A stretch of DNA of 64,000 nt from a virus: positions 7,242 through 71,241 of the IMG/VR virus record IMGVR_UViG_3300044997_000693. The stretch is one strand, 5' to 3'. Positions within the stretch are counted from its first letter, which is position 1. Every line of letters begins with the position of its first letter. The position numbers and the translations under genes are program-made. Below are positions 1,634 to 42,532 of the stretch, piece by piece. The notes below the pieces were generated by a model. The model did no database searches. It was given only the letters and a program-made list of their open reading frames with translations, and was not told the DNA's origin.

Positions 1634-2077
1634 ATGACTCAAGAAGAACGCGAAACAGTAGAAAGACGAAAATCTGCCGCAACTAGAATGATATTTGTAC
1701 AATTCCAAAAGGAAGGCATCCATTGCTACCCAGCTGCTGCCACTGACCCCAAATTAAATACCAACGATGAATACAATGTTGCATTCCTTGCTAGCCCTCA
1801 TCGTCATATCTTCTGGTTTAAAGTTTGGATTGATGTCTGGCACTCAAATAGAGATTTAGAGTTTATACAATTTAAACGCTGGTTAGAAAGTTTCTACAGC
1901 CAAGGCATTTTACAGTTGGATTTTAAAAGCGTAGAAATGCTGGCAGATGATTTGTATGTGCAAATAGCCGAACGATATCCAGATAGGGCAGTATGGATTG
2001 AAATTTCAGAAGATAACGAAAACGGTTGTTTGATTAAATATGATTTAACTCGTCCAGCACAGAATATTAAGATTTAA
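1634..2077 (+). CDS. QueD/PTPS-like T-fold protein (divergent)
   Basis: EGIH, HRH (putative Zn ligands), ElEF, SVEMLA and C-terminal EISED pattern resemble T-fold proteins. Confidence 0.55.
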   Translation: MTQEERETVERRKSAATRMIFVQFQKEGIHCYPAAATDPKLNTNDEYNVAFLASPHRHIFWFKVWIDVWHSNRDLEFIQFKRWLESFYSQGILQLDFKSVEMLADDLYVQIAERYPDRAVWIEISEDNENGCLIKYDLTRPAQNIKI

Positions 2078-37694: not shown

Positions 37695-37855
37695 GCGACA
37701 TGGAATATGACATCCAAGAACTGTTTATCGAAGGTTATACAGCCCAAGAAATTGCACAACAACTGGACTTGTCTGAGTTCACAGTGTGTGAGGTTTTGGC
37801 CAGCTTTGGTGTGAGCGTGGAGTATTTCAGCCCGTATGCCACAGTCAACAGTTGA
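37691..37855 (+). CDS. small HTH-like protein
   Basis: GGAG SD; GYTAQEIAQQLDLSEFTV. Confidence 0.65.
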   Translation: MSDMEYDIQELFIEGYTAQEIAQQLDLSEFTVCEVLASFGVSVEYFSPYATVNS

Positions 37856-37919
37856 CCGGTAATGCTTGTTCAAGGCATTTAAAATTCAGTGTCTGGTGTC
37901 GGTGATAAGTAAATGTGTT

Positions 37920-37993
37920 GCCCTTGTAGTTAAATGGTATAACAGTTGCCTTGTAAGCATCAATCGGTGGTTCGATTCCATCCTGGGGCACCA
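37920..37993 (+). tRNA. tRNA-Thr(TGT)
   Basis: GCCCTTG/CTGGGGC-A-CCA; loop CTTGTAA; GGTTCGATTCC; two T-T mismatches. Confidence 0.85.
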
Positions 37994-38000
37994 AAATTAT

Positions 38001-38033
38001 TCCCCAATAGCTCAGTCGGTAGAGTAGCAGACT
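38001..38033 (+). pseudogene. 5' half (positions 1-33) of an Asn-type tRNA
   Basis: TCCCCAA-TA-GCTC-AGTCGGTA-GAGT-A-GCAGA-CT then unrelated sequence. Confidence 0.8.
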
Positions 38034-38077
38034 TAGAGAGCAAGTTTTATATAAATAAACGTATGGAGGAATCTAAT

Positions 38078-38704
38078 ATGTTTATTTGTAAATACTGCGA
38101 CAAGGAATGTAAGAACAGTAATTCACTAAGGAATCACGAAAGATTATGTAAAAACAATCCAAATAGACAATTTACGCCTTTTCATTGTCAAAAGTTTCAG
38201 AATTCTTCTAGTAAGAGAGGAAATCAGTATACTAAAGCAAAGAAATTAGGTTTAGATATTCCGCAGATTAGTGATTCAACTAGAGAAAAACTCAAAAAAG
38301 CTTATTCTTCTAGAACAAGTGAGTGGCACAAAGAAAATGGGAAAAAGATTTCTGAAACGATTAATAAAAAAGTTAAAGAAGGAACATGGCATACTTCACT
38401 GGCAAAACATATGCACATTGAGTATAATGGCATTGATTTACACGGGTCGTGGGAGTTGGCTTATGCGAAATATCTTGATGCTAATAACATTCGTTGGATT
38501 AGAAATAAAGACTCATTTACTTATGTCTATGACGGTAAAGAAAGAAAATACACACCTGACTTTTATCTAATCGATTCAGATGAATATATAGAAATAAAAG
38601 GATACAAGACTAAAAAAGATGAAGCAAAATGGTCTCAATTTCCTAAACATAGAAAATTAATAATTCTAATGCGAAAAGAATTTAAAGATTTGAAATTAAT
38701 TTAA
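38078..38704 (+). CDS. PD-(D/E)XK endonuclease with C2H2-type Zn finger (homing-endonuclease-like)
   Basis: CKYC..H..C, SWE..Y, YTPDFYL..IEIKG; TATAAATA box and GGAGG SD; AT-rich. Confidence 0.85.
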   Translation: MFICKYCDKECKNSNSLRNHERLCKNNPNRQFTPFHCQKFQNSSSKRGNQYTKAKKLGLDIPQISDSTREKLKKAYSSRTSEWHKENGKKISETINKKVKEGTWHTSLAKHMHIEYNGIDLHGSWELAYAKYLDANNIRWIRNKDSFTYVYDGKERKYTPDFYLIDSDEYIEIKGYKTKKDEAKWSQFPKHRKLIILMRKEFKDLKLI

Positions 38705-38709
38705 TACAT

Positions 38710-38788
38710 TCCGCAGAATTCGAGCATGGTGCACGGACTTGACTGTTAATCAATGATTAGCTGGGATCGTTACCCAGATGCGGAGCCA
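38710..38788 (+). tRNA. divergent tRNA-Asn(GTT)
   Basis: TCCGCA/TGCGGA-G-CCA; TTGA-CTGTTAA-TCAA; T-arm CTGGG-ATCGTTA-CCCAG. Confidence 0.85.
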
Positions 38789-38814
38789 TTTCAACTGAAT
38801 TAGATTAAATTTAA

Positions 38815-38891
38815 TCTTCGATAGCTCAGTTGGTAGCAGCAGCGGACTCATAATCCGTCGGTCCGTGGTTCGAGCCCACGTTGGGGAGCCA
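38815..38891 (+). tRNA. tRNA with CAT anticodon on an Asn-like acceptor (U1-A72, G73)
   Basis: TCTTCGA/TTGGGGA-G-CCA; GCGGA-CTCATAA-TCCGT; GGTTCGAGCCC. Confidence 0.85.
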
Positions 38892-38930
38892 ACTACATGA
38901 AAAATTCAAATGCCCGAAAAGTCTGCTCTG

Positions 38931-38990
38931 TCACTGGCCAATATGCTCATAACACTGCGCCGTAGCCGGCTTCGCTGCCGGCTCTTGTCC
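38931..38990 (+). repeat. non-coding motif, copy 1
   Basis: 28/34 identical to 40411-40444; followed by AGCCGGC/GCCGGCT hairpin. Confidence 0.75.
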
Positions 38991-39014
38991 TTTAAATGAC
39001 TTAGAAGAAAATCA

Positions 39015-39176
39015 ATGACAAAAGTAAAATTTTATGAGCAGGTCATGCGTAGTCTTGGCAAAGTTGTAACCTGGAGAATTTTAGTTACTATTACTAATTT
39101 TTTTGGTGGATGGATTGCGTCGGGCAATCCCAGGGTAGGACTAGGTGTAGTTAGTTTTGCGCTGGTAACCATATAA
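39015..39176 (+). CDS. DUF2061-like membrane peptide, apparently 3'-truncated (53 aa)
   Basis: E...RSLGKVVTWRI start; lacks the usual Y..HER.W end. Confidence 0.55.
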   Translation: MTKVKFYEQVMRSLGKVVTWRILVTITNFFGGWIASGNPRVGLGVVSFALVTI

Positions 39177-39184
39177 GGAACGAT

Positions 39185-39352
39185 ATGTCAAAACTATCAG
39201 ACACACTCAAAGCTGCACTAAATAAAAAAAGTGGTATCCATCATCCAGATGGTAGTGATGCTGGAACTGCTGTAGAAAAGAAAACTAAGAAATCAGGCAC
39301 TCCGGTGATTGGTAAAAAACCACCAACTCGTAGTGCCGGACGTGGCAGATAA
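39185..39352 (+). CDS. small basic protein (55 aa, not in ORF track)
   Basis: AAGGA SD; ends TRSAGRGR. Confidence 0.7.
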   Translation: MSKLSDTLKAALNKKSGIHHPDGSDAGTAVEKKTKKSGTPVIGKKPPTRSAGRGR

Positions 39353-39360
39353 ACTATACT

Positions 39361-40347
39361 ATGTTACAAACTTTATCCCCGACTACTGAATTAAACTTAA
39401 CGTTTGATCGATCTAACTTACAAATTCTTAAACCCTATTTTGATATTAACTTTGCTACTGCGCCTTTAAATGAAAAAATAATTTTTTTTAACAATTTAAA
39501 AACGGTTTGTCAAACTAGTCTAGGTTTGGCGCATTGTATGCAACATCATCTGGCTGCTAGAACTGCTGTGCAGTTAAGTGCTGCAACACACACGTTGGTT
39601 AATACGACCAACTTTTCTGATGTAATTGGGTGTTACAGTATAGTAAAGCGTAGTGATAAATTAATATTAGACCAACACTTGCTCAATGGCACTAAGAGAT
39701 GGTTTAGTAATATTCATATAGCCGACTTTGGTGTTTTACAAATTTCCGATGGCGAGAAAATTAAATTAGTTTATCTTGATCTTAAACAAGTTTTGCATGA
39801 AATCAAACACGACTCATTTACTCCAATAGGCATGGAGATAGCACGAGCCGGCGATCTTGTGGTGGATCGCCATCAGGTTCCTGACATTGACATACTAGGT
39901 TATGCTGGCACCCAGCAGTTTTTCCAACAAAGCAATTTTACCAGTTATTGTTTTTTAACTAATCATTATGCTTTAACCAAATCACTCTTTTTAGACATCA
40001 AGCAATACGCAGAAAAAAATCAATGTGGCGCAGAATTTGATTTAAAAAAATTAGAAATAGATGTTTGCAGTTTAGAAATGCAGTGGCAAGACAATCTTAA
40101 ATCTTTAGCGCAAACTGAACTTACTAACGAATTTTGGAATCGCCGAAACACGCAATATGCATTCAGTAAAAAAACTTTAATATCTGTAATACAATTTGTT
40201 TTGGAGATTGGAGTCACGTATTTTGTAGATGCCAATAGTCCGTATAGCCAACGATTTAGAGATGCTATTACTTACTGTAGTCATATGCATCCACTGTATC
40301 GGTTTGGGCAGCATTTTCACTTGCTTGATCTTACCGCCGATAAATAA
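39361..40347 (+). CDS. acyl-CoA dehydrogenase-like fold protein (divergent)
   Basis: LNGTKRWFSN, PIGM, QRFRDA. Confidence 0.6.
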   Translation: MLQTLSPTTELNLTFDRSNLQILKPYFDINFATAPLNEKIIFFNNLKTVCQTSLGLAHCMQHHLAARTAVQLSAATHTLVNTTNFSDVIGCYSIVKRSDKLILDQHLLNGTKRWFSNIHIADFGVLQISDGEKIKLVYLDLKQVLHEIKHDSFTPIGMEIARAGDLVVDRHQVPDIDILGYAGTQQFFQQSNFTSYCFLTNHYALTKSLFLDIKQYAEKNQCGAEFDLKKLEIDVCSLEMQWQDNLKSLAQTELTNEFWNRRNTQYAFSKKTLISVIQFVLEIGVTYFVDANSPYSQRFRDAITYCSHMHPLYRFGQHFHLLDLTADK

Positions 40348-40354
40348 TTTCTGC

Positions 40355-40470
40355 AACGCCGGGTAGTTCCGACGGTCGGTATCAAAGCGACGCCTAGGGT
40401 TTATGCCCTTTTACTGACTAATATGCTCATAACGCCGCACCGTATGTAAATCATCTACTAGCTCCTGTCT
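40355..40470 (+). ncRNA. candidate structured leader RNA containing motif copy 2
   Basis: follows GATAAATA; hairpins CCGA/TCGG and AGGGT/GCCCT; 40411-40444 matches 38931-38964. Confidence 0.45.
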
Positions 40471-41387: not shown

Positions 41388-42532
41388 CTTATCTATACCA
41401 CAACAAAGGGGTTTACACCTGCAACGGTAAACCTTTTTTTAATAAACTGGAAGCCATACTAGAAGCCAACCGGTCGGGTCAACACATAGATTGGGACTAT
41501 CACAATGCCGTCTTTGGACAAACTCGCTGGGATCTTGACCCACCGGTTGAGCTAGAAGAATTGTATCGCCAACGAGCACTGCAACTTCGCGAAGCTTATG
41601 ATCATCTTGTTTTGTTCTATTCTGGCGGTGTGGATTCGTGGTACATACTTCGAACCTTTATTAAAAACAATATCAAACTGGACGAAATCTATATGTTTGG
41701 TGCGTTCGAAGCTGAAGAAAAAATGTATGGCACGTGGGGATACGATACCAGTCCCGGTTACTATACCAGAGAAATTCAGCAGGCTTTACCACAACTACGA
41801 CAACTAGTGGCCAAACACAATATCAAGATCAATGTTTATGACTGGACTAAAAATATATTAGAGGCAGCCAACCACCCAGACTGGTTTTGGCATGCTGGAG
41901 TGCGCTTTGATCCCACCTGCATGGTTCGTAGCAAGTTCCACAAAATATTCCGCGAACATAATGAACTGTTGCACCGAGGCAAACGAGTTGGATTTGTTTA
42001 TGGAGTAGATAAACCTCGCTTATTAAGAGACGACACAAATATTTATTTTGCGTTCTTGGATGTTATCATGACCACAGGCACGATGCCCACCAACGATATT
42101 CTTGGAGAATATTGGGAAAATGATGAATACTTTTACTGGAGCCCAAATCTTCCTGAGCTAGCAGTCAAACAAAGTCATGTGGTTGTAAATTGGTTACAAG
42201 CCAACAATAAAACTCATCTTATCAAACACATGAACAATATTGCCGACTTTCATGATGAAAACTATTACCGAGAAGTTAATTTCAGCATTTATCCCGAATG
42301 GAATCACAATACCTGGCAAATCAAAAAGCCCACCAAGGCTGTATGGAACGAAATGAGCCGTTGGTTTATCGAAGGCGAATTTGAGGCCAAAATCAAATGG
42401 ATGAATAGCCTGCACGAATTGGAAAGAATATGTGGCAAACAATGGTTCAACGGAAATACTGTGTACGATGGGCTCAGAGGTCACCTGAGCCCTTTGTATA
42501 AAATAGCGACTTACGCCCAGGTTGACCCATGA
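41384..42532 (+). CDS. PP-loop (adenine nucleotide alpha hydrolase) protein
   Basis: LVLFYSGGVDS, G.DKP, EYFYW. Confidence 0.7.
   Translation: MTYLYHNKGVYTCNGKPFFNKLEAILEANRSGQHIDWDYHNAVFGQTRWDLDPPVELEELYRQRALQLREAYDHLVLFYSGGVDSWYILRTFIKNNIKLDEIYMFGAFEAEEKMYGTWGYDTSPGYYTREIQQALPQLRQLVAKHNIKINVYDWTKNILEAANHPDWFWHAGVRFDPTCMVRSKFHKIFREHNELLHRGKRVGFVYGVDKPRLLRDDTNIYFAFLDVIMTTGTMPTNDILGEYWENDEYFYWSPNLPELAVKQSHVVVNWLQANNKTHLIKHMNNIADFHDENYYREVNFSIYPEWNHNTWQIKKPTKAVWNEMSRWFIEGEFEAKIKWMNSLHELERICGKQWFNGNTVYDGLRGHLSPLYKIATYAQVDP

What the first reader, a model, noticed from the sequence alone, without database searches (positions are those of the whole stretch)
38001..38788. tRNA broken exactly at U33 by a nuclease cassette that is followed by a complete divergent tRNA-Asn
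A canonical Asn-type 5' half stops precisely after C32-U33, at the anticodon boundary. Next come a TATAAATA box, an AT-rich Zn-finger/PD-(D/E)XK nuclease gene and, 5 nt after its stop, a full tRNA-Asn(GTT) with a very different body (T-loop ATCGTTA, long D-loop). No group I intron core is visible. Inference: a selfish element that targets tRNA anticodon-loop DNA, destroys the resident gene and restores function with a cleavage-resistant replacement, a non-splicing homing strategy. The isotype of the half is inferred from its body, since the anticodon is missing.
Basis: partly seen in the sequence, partly recalled or inferred. Interest (0 to 1): 0.8.

Follow-up and report, generated by a model that had tools for sequence, protein, structure and literature searches.

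The report
Homing nuclease cassette overwrites phage tRNA-Asn
A selfish DNA-cutting-enzyme gene sits in the middle of this lake phage's asparagine tRNA gene, with both broken ends still beside it, and next to it lies a differently built asparagine tRNA that could take over, which shows how such elements can invade RNA genes without a self-splicing intron.

Summary
Window 38001-38033 is the first 33 bases of a phage tRNA-Asn(GTT) gene. The match is 33/33 to an intact gene in 18 of 18 viral contigs holding the 32-mer. It also matches 5 of 5 metagenome contigs with tRNA-Thr, then intact tRNA-Asn, then a homolog of the window's 39185 ORF. After T33 come a TATAAATA box, an RBS and a 208-aa ORF (CCHC zinc finger plus PD-(D/E)XK nuclease). 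Five nt after its stop lies a complete, non-canonical tRNA-Asn(GTT). No intron ribozyme is present.

New here: the last 32 nt of the broken gene survive. They are fused to a foreign 5' part as the "tRNA(CAT)" at 38815-38891.

The nuclease family is tightly linked to tRNA genes. In 43 of 59 distinct contexts a tRNA starts at its stop codon, mostly Asn or Ser. In 18 of 59 a 5' tRNA fragment lies upstream. In the Asn group that fragment ends at the same 33|34 junction.

The divergent tRNA is a real, widespread phage tRNA. It mostly occurs without the nuclease, in 74 of 80 loci.

Cleavage specificity and resistance of the carried tRNA are untested.

Best reading: an intron-free homing cassette that overwrites a tRNA gene and supplies a substitute.

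This scan has noted the same phenomenon before on other DNA. I found no paper describing it. I class it as a new variant of a known kind.

The parts
37920..37993 (+). tRNA-Thr(TGT), the resident left neighbour. It is also the left neighbour of the intact tRNA-Asn in the empty-site contigs.
   Evidence: ARAGORN; Rfam tRNA 62 bits. In L203-L207 a tRNA-Thr is followed by a spacer and the intact Asn.
38001..38033 (+). 5' remnant (positions 1-33) of the resident canonical tRNA-Asn(GTT) gene, ending at C32-T33
   Evidence: 33/33 identical to the intact gene in 18 of 18 viral contigs and in the empty-site contigs. Blast identity stops at 38033.
38034..38049 (+). Left end of the cassette: a purine-rich leader (TAGAGAGC...) at a fixed 14-16 nt before the promoter box
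   Evidence: Related leaders ((T)AGAAAAC / TAAAAA) follow ...ACT in 12 further cassettes.
38050..38057 (+). TATAAATA box. It matches the T4-type late promoter consensus; that consensus is recalled from textbook knowledge, and use of the box here is not shown.
   Evidence: The exact box lies upstream of the nuclease in 19 of 59 contexts. The background rate is 0.017 per 140 nt.
38065..38069 (+). Ribosome-binding site GGAGG, 8 nt before the ATG
   Evidence: Read from the sequence.
38078..38704 (+). 208-aa endonuclease gene: an N-terminal CCHC zinc finger (C4, C7, H20, C24), a helical linker, and a C-terminal PD-(D/E)XK nuclease (E126, D161, E172, K174)
   Evidence: ORF. phrog_15137 'endonuclease' 1.2e-17. 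Invariant residues in 30 homologs. AF2 model with pLDDT 88. T7 endonuclease I at E=6e-4. VIA Z 8.1 to TnsA and Z 6.7 to I-Bth0305I.
38710..38788 (+). Complete non-canonical tRNA-Asn(GTT), here called Asn'. It has D-loop AGCATGGTGCA, T-loop ATCGTTA, a G7·A66 mismatch, G73 and an encoded CCA.
   Evidence: ARAGORN at 85% threshold. 86% identical to an unannotated element in Acinetobacter phages. Family of 52 distinct sequences. Covariation.
38789..38814 (+). 26-nt spacer, part of the foreign segment
   Evidence: Absent from the intact alleles.
38815..38859 (+). Foreign 5' two-thirds of the 'tRNA(CAT)': acceptor 5' strand, D arm, anticodon arm with CAT
   Evidence: All 11 differences from the intact Asn lie in these 45 columns. 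The acceptor pairs through three G·U pairs, and the D stem has a mismatch.
38860..38891 (+). 3' remnant of the resident tRNA-Asn (variable loop end, T arm, acceptor 3' strand, G73, CCA). It now forms the 3' third of the tRNA(CAT).
   Evidence: 32/32 identical to the intact Asn. The chance that all 11 differences fall outside it is 0.0015. It pairs perfectly with 38001-38007.

Best explanation
This is a free-standing, intron-less homing-endonuclease cassette that has overwritten the middle of the phage's own tRNA-Asn(GTT) gene.

Shown:
- Relatives have tRNA-Thr, then an intact tRNA-Asn, then the next ORF.
- In the window, bases 34-44 of that gene are replaced by about 826 nt (38034-38859).
- The replacement holds a TATAAATA box, an RBS, an intact zinc-finger/PD-(D/E)XK nuclease gene, a complete tRNA-Asn of a different body type, a spacer, and the 5' two-thirds of a CAT tRNA.
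- The resident 5' 33 nt and 3' 32 nt remain on either side.

Inferred:
1. The nuclease is made late in infection.
2. It cuts the DNA of intact canonical tRNA-Asn genes at or near position 33/34 in co-infecting phages that lack it.
3. The break is repaired by recombination from the nuclease-bearing genome.
4. The left crossover uses the 33-bp tRNA 5' half as its homology arm.
5. The right crossover uses whatever tRNA 3' homology is at hand. Here that is the T arm of a donor CAT tRNA, which produced the chimera.
6. The carried Asn' keeps AAC/AAU decoding, so the insertion costs the phage little.
7. The disrupted allele lacks the right half of the target site and is immune.
For: Insertion shown:
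- 18 of 18 viral contigs with the 32-mer have the intact gene.
- 5 of 5 metagenome contigs with Thr, spacer and the Asn 5' part have the intact gene followed by a homolog of window ORF 39185-39352. L205 stays syntenic at 41486, 42543 and 42819.
- An independent assembly reproduces both junctions.

Nuclease:
- Invariant C4, C7, H20 and E126, D161, E172, K174 in 30 homologs.
- Restriction-endonuclease-like fold.

Linkage to tRNA genes:
- In 43 of 59 distinct contexts a tRNA starts within -25..+60 nt of the stop. These are 17 Asn(GTT), 13 Ser(TGA), 8 other Ser, 2 CAT and 3 others.
- Only 18% of positions in these loci are followed by a tRNA start in that range. Asn is 6% of their + strand tRNAs.

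Recurrent junction:
- 18 of 59 contexts have a 5'-type tRNA fragment upstream (score >=34). In the control of 59 ORF-internal segments, one reached 34, and I think it overlaps a tRNA; no other did.
- In 11 listed cassettes plus the window, the fragment ends ...ACT at position 33, 14-16 nt before TATAAATA or a near variant. The tRNA bodies differ between them.
- L047, L048 and L031/32 keep matching 3' remnants.

Second proven case, in cultured phages:
- Acinetobacter phage AM101 has a family member inserted cleanly after the anticodon of a tRNA(CAT). That tRNA is intact in phage Maestro.

Precedent:
Against: - No cleavage data exist, so target, cut site and resistance of Asn' are inferred.
- Target and substitute share the 11-bp core GACTGTTAATC. 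In L027 the 8 nt before the junction are identical in the fragment and the carried tRNA. Any immunity must therefore lie elsewhere.
- Asn' mostly occurs without the nuclease (74 of 80 loci), so it is not an obligate part of a cassette.
- 16 of 59 contexts have no adjacent tRNA. L033-L037 carry a 64%-identical nuclease in a non-tRNA setting.
- Intact alleles were sought for two other 5' halves (L047, L042). Only the interrupted contigs themselves were found. Independent insertion at 33|34 is proven for the window only.
- The isotype of several other halves is ambiguous.
- The empty-site contigs are diverged relatives (about 75% identity in tRNA-Thr). The window also has 293 extra nt at 38892-39184. 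The right boundary is therefore not certain.
Confidence: 0.68

Rival explanations
1. This is a recombination scar only. The nuclease is a free-standing endonuclease whose real target lies elsewhere, for example the T-loop as with SegB, or a non-tRNA site. The tRNA pieces are by-products of illegitimate or homeologous recombination between similar tRNA genes during repair. Asn' is merely the gene that happened to lie next to the nuclease in the donor.
For: - Right junctions vary: variable loop in L047, T loop in L031/32, and a second tRNA in the window.
- Chimeric tRNAs occur: the window tRNA(CAT), and the L039 Asn with a mismatched acceptor stem.
- SegB recognises the T-psi-C motif (PMC2330249, abstract).
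- Asn' is usually free of the nuclease.
Against: - The left junction is constant at 33|34, at a fixed distance from the promoter box, in 12 cassettes with different tRNA bodies.
- The window's 5' fragment is 33/33 identical to the resident allele right up to the junction. That fits a break at that point.
- A Ser(TGA) subgroup has its own constant junction after the anticodon.
Confidence: 0.2
2. The tRNA swap is what selection acts on, and the nuclease only rides along. The oddly built Asn' replaces a canonical tRNA-Asn because it resists a host tRNA-cutting defence or another phage's tRNA-gene nuclease.
For: - The Asn' family is widespread and conserved. 93 stretches were found, and the 80 loci examined gave 52 distinct sequences.
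- In phage Maestro, Asn' lies directly upstream of a segB-type gene. Its T-loop differs from the canonical T-psi-C motif that SegB recognises (PMC2330249, abstract).
Against: - Nothing here tests resistance.
- It does not explain the constant junction or why the nuclease is linked to several isotypes.
- It is compatible with the main reading rather than opposed to it.
Confidence: 0.07
3. This is a spliced intron or split tRNA. The 5' half and a 3' half are joined at the RNA level to give a working tRNA-Asn.
For: - The 5' half pairs perfectly with the 3' end at 38885-38891.
- In AM101 both halves are complete.
Against: - No Rfam intron family matches at E<=10.
- The ORF fills almost all of the insert.
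- In the window, positions 34-44 (anticodon and 3' strand of the anticodon stem) of the resident gene are absent.
- No other 3' half is found in the window.
Confidence: 0.03
4. This is an assembly chimera of several phages that share tRNA sequence.
For: tRNA genes are repeats that can mis-join contigs. Other contigs in the same samples share these tRNA segments.
Against: - Contigs from an independent sample (X3) cross the left junction and the nuclease/Asn'/tRNA(CAT) stretch with 0 differences.
- The same architecture recurs in dozens of contigs and in finished genomes of cultured phages.
Confidence: 0.02

Closest known systems
Phage T4 SegB, a free-standing GIY-YIG homing endonuclease in the tRNA gene cluster (PMC2330249, abstract read; PMC13096335, passages read)
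   Same: - It is a selfish nuclease gene lodged among phage tRNA genes.
- It recognises DNA of tRNA genes.
- Homing carries neighbouring tRNA genes into the recipient and erases the recipient's markers.
- No intron is involved.
   Different: - SegB is GIY-YIG; the protein here is a zinc finger plus PD-(D/E)XK.
- SegB recognises the T-psi-C stem-loop motif and lies between genes. Here the gene lies inside a tRNA gene at the anticodon loop.
- Here the cassette leaves both ends of the victim and sits directly before a same-isotype substitute.
Mobile endonuclease ORFs (mORFs) of fungal mitochondria that bring a foreign gene end: Allomyces atp6; Glomus atp6, atp9, cox2 and nad3 (PMC3630166, passages read)
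   Same: - An endonuclease ORF inserts into a gene without an intron.
- It carries a foreign replacement for the part it displaces.
- The native part stays behind as a remnant that is most similar to the close relative's gene.
   Different: - Those are protein-coding genes. The replacement is an in-frame C-terminal piece fused to the resident core, and the enzymes are LAGLIDADG or GIY-YIG.
- Here the victim is an RNA gene, a whole independent tRNA is supplied, and the resident 5' part is discarded.
Group I introns in bacterial tRNA anticodon loops with intron-encoded homing endonucleases, e.g. the tRNA-fMet intron with the PD-(D/E)XK enzyme I-Ssp6803I (recalled; review PMC3984707 seen only in a search listing)
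   Same: - The landing site is the anticodon loop of a tRNA gene.
- The nuclease belongs to the PD-(D/E)XK superfamily.
   Different: - No ribozyme is present and the 3' exon is incomplete, so splicing cannot restore the gene.
- I-Ssp6803I did not appear among the sequence or fold matches listed.
I-Bth0305I, TnsA and T7 endonuclease I (solved PD-(D/E)XK / restriction-endonuclease-like nucleases)
   Same: - The C-terminal domain (residues about 106-208) aligns with them: TnsA Z 8.1, I-Bth0305I Z 6.7, T7 endonuclease I E=6e-4.
- It has the E...PD...ExK residues.
   Different: - Only the catalytic fold is shared.
- Z values are middling.
- Pfam Phage_endo_I scores below its cut-off (18.4 against 29.1 bits).
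- The N-terminal CCHC finger and linker have no counterpart in those proteins.

Membership tests
Free-standing (intron-less) homing endonuclease gene | The nuclease ORF lies in neither a self-splicing intron nor an intein | tested here: met
   No Rfam intron family matches 37700-39100 at E<=10. The ORF has its own RBS and promoter-like box and fills 627 of the roughly 826 inserted nt.
Free-standing (intron-less) homing endonuclease gene | Sporadic presence: related genomes have the same site without the gene | tested here: met
   5 of 5 syntenic metagenome contigs and 18 of 18 viral contigs with the allele lack it. AM101 compared with Maestro shows the same for another family member.
Free-standing (intron-less) homing endonuclease gene | Site-specific cleavage of the allele that lacks the gene, with the carrier allele immune | not testable with these tools
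   Inferred only, from the constant 33|34 junction.
Free-standing (intron-less) homing endonuclease gene | Nuclease-dependent preferential inheritance in mixed infection | not testable with these tools
   This needs phage crosses.
PD-(D/E)XK nuclease superfamily | Catalytic residues E ... PD ... (D/E)xK on a restriction-endonuclease-like core | tested here: met
   E126, P160-D161 and E172-x-K174 are invariant in 30 sequences. The fold matches TnsA, I-Bth0305I, Bax1, Vsr and Hjc at Z 4.7-8.1. T7 endonuclease I matches at E=6e-4.
Pfam PF05367 Phage_endo_I (T7 endonuclease I family) | Score above the curated cut-off | tested here: not met
   18.4 bits against a cut-off of 29.1.
GIY-YIG Seg family (SegB) | GIY-YIG catalytic domain | tested here: not met
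   No GIY-YIG family appears among the Pfam or PHROG matches. The fold is PD-(D/E)XK.
Group I intron in a tRNA gene | Ribozyme core, and two exons that together make a whole tRNA | tested here: not met
   No intron model matches. Positions 34-44 are missing from the flanks.
tRNA (the divergent Asn') | Cloverleaf kept by compensatory changes, with anticodon GTT in a 7-nt loop | tested here: met
   In 39 sequences, 88% of cells are paired, against 68% in shuffles and 33-48% when slid. 14 of 21 pairs have changes on both sides, and the T stem is 100% paired. Caveat: members were collected with a pattern that fixes GGTG, CTGTTAA and GGATCGTTACC.
tRNA (the divergent Asn') | Detection by standard tRNA models | tested here: inconclusive
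   ARAGORN at default settings gives no call, and Rfam RF00005 is not listed at E<=10. ARAGORN at 85% threshold calls it. The L004 homolog is called at default settings.
tRNA (the divergent Asn') | Expressed, processed and charged with asparagine | not testable with these tools
   No RNA data were laid on it. The only run on record as RNA held 0.04 of the sampled words.

The most novel reading that the evidence does not exclude
The window is one member of a broad, undescribed guild of isotype-specific, intron-free homing cassettes. They use the anticodon-loop DNA of phage tRNA genes as a landing pad: Asn at 33|34, Ser(TGA) and CAT tRNAs just after the anticodon. Each travels with a substitute tRNA whose body is recoded. 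On this reading, the repeated attack and replacement is itself what drives phage tRNA bodies into odd shapes. The long-D-loop, ATCGTTA-T-loop tRNA-Asn family would be one such product, and tRNA arrays would become mosaics of halves and chimeras.
Probability: 0.35. Interest if true: 0.8.

Novelty: new variant of a known kind. Interest (0 to 1): 0.66.

Why it matters
Homing endonucleases are thought to enter essential or useful genes safely only inside self-splicing introns or inteins, or else to sit between genes. This case shows a third route for an RNA gene: overwrite it and bring a spare.

If the inferred cleavage is real, several things follow.
- It explains orphan tRNA halves, chimeric tRNAs and some non-canonical tRNAs in phage genomes. 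Standard finders miss these and annotators leave them blank.
- It shows that tRNA genes can serve as portable homology arms that let cassettes hop between otherwise unrelated phages.
- It offers a family of small zinc-finger/PD-(D/E)XK enzymes with predictable, different DNA targets.

Cultured pairs such as Acinetobacter phage AM101 (interrupted) against Maestro (intact) make the idea directly testable.

Tried and rejected
Rejected readings
- Group I or other intron: no Rfam intron match. Rejected.

Searches that found nothing
- A 3' half for the orphan elsewhere in the window: the pattern search gave 0 matches.
- Exact relatives of the tRNA(CAT) 5' part in viral contigs: 0. The donor of that piece is unknown.
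- Relatives of the 328-aa neighbour (39361-40344) in viral contigs: none.
- First metagenome pattern, an exact 42-mer across the Thr/Asn junction: 0. The looser pattern then found 5.
- Canonical Asn 48-mer in 185,579 species' genomes: 0. I have no sign that it is a host copy.
- Intact alleles for the 5' halves of L047 and L042: each search found only the interrupted contig itself.

Weak or partial results
- Foldseek against PDB gave no match at E<=0.001. The fold assignment rests on VIA, the motif and the T7 endonuclease I sequence match.
- I-Ssp6803I was not among the rows listed. This does not exclude a relationship.
- Isotype assignment of other 5' halves by best match is ambiguous for 5 of 10.
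- The 'canonical D arm absent from carried tRNAs' check (0 of 17) has no fair control. I treat it only as a hint.
- The count of Asn' loci without the nuclease used 80 of the 93 stretches found. At least 8 of the 80 had under 700 nt of upstream DNA.

Reads
- X3 has no contig over about 38396-38458.
- X4 holds only parts.
- Two joints, each seen in a single contig with short sides (21 and 26 nt), were not interpreted.

Not used
- Complex prediction, the protein-atlas search, the search for homologous proteins, the search of protein representatives, the look-up of encoding contigs, build_rna_model.

Papers
- Searches found no paper describing a nuclease gene inside a phage tRNA gene with a substitute tRNA.
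The SegB site list of PMC13096335 could bear on T-loop targeting.
Full report
**What is there**

The window is part of a 71-kb IMG/VR virus record judged about 20% complete. After tRNA-Thr (37920-37993) comes a 33-nt stretch, 38001-38033, that reads as acceptor strand, D arm and 5' anticodon stem of a tRNA. It stops after C32-T33.

Next come:
- a purine-rich leader;
- TATAAATA at 38050-38057;
- GGAGG at 38065-38069;
- a 208-aa ORF at 38078-38704;
- five bases;
- a 79-nt cloverleaf with anticodon GTT at 38710-38788;
- a 26-nt spacer;
- a tRNA(CAT) at 38815-38891.

The ORF region has 25-36% G+C against 44-49% around it. No Rfam intron family matches at E<=10.

**The half is a piece of a real gene, and the insertion is proven**

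A 32-mer of the half occurs in 18 other viral contigs. In all 18 it is the start of an intact, identical 76-nt tRNA-Asn(GTT). The contigs have about nine different flanks.

A pattern for 'tRNA-Thr 3' end, short spacer, Asn 5' part' found 5 metagenome contigs. All 5 carry the intact tRNA-Asn, followed after 16-19 nt by an ORF homologous to window 39185-39352 (53-63% amino-acid identity). L205 remains syntenic further on, at window 41486, 42543 and 42819.

These relatives are diverged (tRNA-Thr about 75% identical). The window also has 293 extra nt at 38892-39184 and an extra gene at 39361-40340. They therefore show the empty site but not its exact right edge.

The 48-mer across the intact anticodon arm is absent from one genome each of 185,579 prokaryote species. 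This is a phage allele rather than a detectable host copy.

Contigs of an independent lake metagenome (X3) cover 37700-38395 and 38459-39100 without a difference. In the same samples a more deeply covered contig carries a close variant of the 5' part that runs on into an intact anticodon loop. Possible partners for exchange therefore co-occur.

**The 3' end of the broken gene is still there**

The tRNA(CAT) at 38815-38891 is closer to the intact tRNA-Asn than to any of 32 tRNA(CAT) genes in the loci then held. Aligned, the two differ at 11 columns, all within the first 45. The last 32 nt are identical (P = 0.0015 under random placement).

The three acceptor-stem differences all lie on the 5' strand and give G·U pairs. 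The D stem has a mismatch. I read this as a chimera: a foreign 5' two-thirds joined in the variable-loop/T-arm region to the resident gene's 3' third.

So about 826 nt (38034-38859) replaced positions 34-44 of the resident gene. The scan's note e1-6188640 had seen the pairing of the orphan half with this 3' end. My alignment explains it.

**The nuclease**

- Pfam gives only a C2H2-type finger at the N terminus and sub-threshold Phage_endo_I and TnsA matches.
- PHROGs gives phrog_15137 'endonuclease' at 1.2e-17.
- In an alignment of 30 homologs, C4, C7, H20, E126, D161, E172 and K174 are invariant, and C24 nearly so.
- The AlphaFold model has mean pLDDT 88.
- A profile search of PDB sequences finds T7 endonuclease I at E=6e-4.
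- Foldseek finds nothing at E<=0.001, but its top rows are Bax1, I-Bth0305I and T7 endonuclease I.
- VIA-align gives TnsA Z 8.1 (111 aligned residues), I-Bth0305I Z 6.7, then Bax1, VRR-NUC, Vsr and Hjc.

It is a zinc-finger/PD-(D/E)XK nuclease with an intact active site. The exact family is unnamed.

**The family lives at tRNA genes**

A profile-guided scan of viral contigs gave 90 relatives, of which 80 were kept. After merging loci with identical flanks and adding the window, there are 59 distinct contexts.

- In 43 of 59 a tRNA starts within -25..+60 nt of the stop codon. These are 17 Asn(GTT), 13 Ser(TGA), 8 other Ser calls, 2 CAT, and one each of Asp, Gln and Glu.
- 16 have none. Two of those end at a contig edge.
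- In the same loci only 18% of positions are followed by a tRNA start in that range. Asn and Ser(TGA) are each about 6% of the + strand tRNAs.
- All 17 Asn-adjacent nucleases are 45% or more identical to the window's. The Ser(TGA)-adjacent ones are 29-47% identical.

Upstream, 18 of 59 contexts have a fragment that aligns (score >=34) to the 5' part of a tRNA. In the control of 59 ORF-internal segments, one reached 34, and I think it overlaps a tRNA; no other did.

Read by eye, the window and L027, L030, L031, L032, L038, L042, L046, L047, L048, L050 and L055 all show a tRNA 5' part ending ...ACT. After it come (T)AGAAAAC-like bases and, 14-16 nt on, TATAAATA or a near variant. L045 is shifted by one base. 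The tRNA bodies differ, with three or more D-arm types.

The exact box TATAAATA is present in 19 of 59 contexts. The background rate is 0.017 per 140 nt.

L047 and L048 keep the matching 3' remnant directly after the stop codon and have no substitute tRNA. L031/32 have nuclease, then substitute Asn, then 3' remnant.

In the Ser(TGA) subgroup the upstream fragment runs through the anticodon (...CTTGA) before the box.

Isotype by best match is clearly Asn only for the window. It is Asn-best for L027, L030, L042 and L047, and ambiguous for five others.

**A second proven case in cultured phages**

The family has homologs of 30-44% identity in 43 GenBank phage records, annotated 'endonuclease' or 'endonuclease I'.

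In Acinetobacter phage AM101 the gene lies inside a tRNA(CAT). The 5' part ends with the anticodon. The 3' part resumes at the nuclease's stop codon. Nothing is missing. The uninterrupted gene, identical in both parts, is in phage Maestro. KARL-1 has a different tRNA(CAT) at that place.

In coliphage vB_Eco_F25 the gene sits between tRNA(CAT) and tRNA-Arg, with a D-arm/anticodon-stem fragment upstream.

**The divergent tRNA-Asn**

It is real, but it is not private to the cassette.

- The window copy is 86% identical to an unannotated stretch in many Acinetobacter T4-like phages. There it lies in the tRNA array without this nuclease, and in Maestro it is directly before a segB-type gene.
- A pattern for its D-loop, anticodon loop and T arm found 93 stretches in viral contigs. 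In the 80 I examined there are 52 distinct sequences. Only 6 loci have a family nuclease within 1.1 kb upstream, and only 2 (one sequence) have it directly adjacent.
- On 39 sequences the cloverleaf is 88% paired against 68% in shuffles and 33-48% when slid. 14 of 21 pairs change on both sides. The pattern fixed some columns.

So the tRNA is a common phage tRNA-Asn type. In the window it arrived beside the nuclease.

None of the 17 carried Asn tRNAs has the strict canonical D arm that the broken halves often have. This hints at where sensitivity might lie, but I have no fair control.

**How it most likely works**

Shown:
- The replacement itself.
- An intact nuclease gene with its own expression signals.
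- The family's linkage to tRNA genes.
- The recurrent junction.

Inferred:
1. The gene is expressed late from the T4-type box. That consensus is recalled, not tested.
2. The protein makes a double-strand cut near 33/34 in intact canonical tRNA-Asn genes of co-infecting phages.
3. Recombinational repair copies the cassette.
4. The 33-bp half serves as the left arm, and any tRNA 3' homology serves as the right arm. That would explain the variable right junctions and the chimeras.
5. The carried tRNA keeps decoding.
6. The split target is immune.

Against a simple 'resistant copy' story, target and substitute share GACTGTTAATC around the junction.

**Comparison with what is known**

SegB of T4 is the nearest phage precedent. 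It is a free-standing homing endonuclease in the tRNA cluster that recognises a tRNA-gene motif and spreads adjacent tRNA genes (PMC2330249, abstract; PMC13096335, passages). It is GIY-YIG, targets the T-psi-C region and lies between genes.

The nearest in logic are the fungal mitochondrial mORFs. These insert into protein genes carrying a foreign replacement C-terminus and leave the native end as a remnant (PMC3630166, passages).

tRNA group I introns with homing endonucleases share the landing site but need a ribozyme, which is absent here.

Five literature searches found no description of a nuclease gene inside a phage tRNA gene with a substitute tRNA. Subscription journals and supplements were not covered.

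This scan has reported the same phenomenon on other DNA with other nuclease families. Those notes are unchecked AI notes. They agree with my reading, but I do not count them as evidence.

**Verdict**

- It is open in its biochemistry: cut site, resistance.
- It is a new variant of intron-less homing.
- It is interesting mainly because it explains orphan tRNA halves and odd tRNAs in phages, and because it is testable with cultured phages.

Noticed in passing
L201 (Acinetobacter phage AM101, MH165274.2) 617-663 and 1331-1370; L001 2495-2571: A family nuclease is inserted cleanly in a tRNA(CAT). The 5' part ends at the anticodon. The 3' part resumes at the nuclease's stop codon, whose AA supplies tRNA bases. 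Nothing is lost and no substitute tRNA is adjacent. Phage Maestro has the identical uninterrupted gene. The record annotates neither half.
   Followed up: partly
L078, L079, L083, L086, L093-L103 (viral contigs): A subgroup of the nuclease family (29-35% identity to the window's) sits directly before tRNA-Ser(TGA). It has an upstream Ser-type 5' fragment that runs through the anticodon (...CTTGA) before the promoter box. The junction is therefore different and specific to that isotype.
   Followed up: partly
L200 (Escherichia phage vB_Eco_F25, OP870144.1) about 497-556 and 636-662: A tRNA-like stretch has matching acceptor strands, a D arm and a T arm, but no anticodon or 3' anticodon stem. 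It breaks after ...CACT, like the cassette junction, and ARAGORN does not call it. It could be the scar of a lost cassette. A separate D-arm fragment lies just before the family nuclease.
   Followed up: no
L001 3957-4036 and 3861-3950; L002 2504-2581 and 2410-2497: Acinetobacter T4-like phages carry the non-canonical tRNA-Asn(GTT), and a second long-armed tRNA-like element before it. Their records leave these unannotated or cover them with short hypothetical ORFs on the other strand. In Maestro the Asn' lies directly upstream of a segB-type gene.
   Followed up: partly
L039 about 2107-2185: The tRNA-Asn after the nuclease has the 5' body of the L040 type but a different T arm, and an acceptor 3' strand that does not pair. 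This is another apparent chimera at a cassette's right edge.
   Followed up: no
L044 about 2139-2235: After the nuclease lies an Asn-like tRNA with about 25 extra bases in the anticodon region. ARAGORN calls it tRNA-Ser(act).
   Followed up: no
L181 about 1950-2030 (reverse strand as fetched): Two different tRNA-Asn(GTT) genes lie in tandem, one of the ATCGTTA type and one of another body type, with no nuclease between them.
   Followed up: no
window 38892-39184 and 39361-40340: These stretches are absent from the syntenic empty-site contigs. In L203, L205 and L206 the homolog of ORF 39185 is followed directly by sequence matching window 40340-40393. The window lineage therefore has further insertions near the tRNA site.
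   Followed up: partly
window 37995-38033, runs X1-X3: In the same lake metagenomes a contig with 4-10 times the depth carries a 3-difference variant of the Asn 5' part that continues into an intact anticodon loop. A phage with an uninterrupted relative of the target therefore co-occurs.
   Followed up: partly
L033-L037: A nuclease 64% identical to the window's lies in a non-tRNA setting. It has TATAAATA upstream and no tRNA on either side, so the family is not confined to tRNA genes.
   Followed up: no
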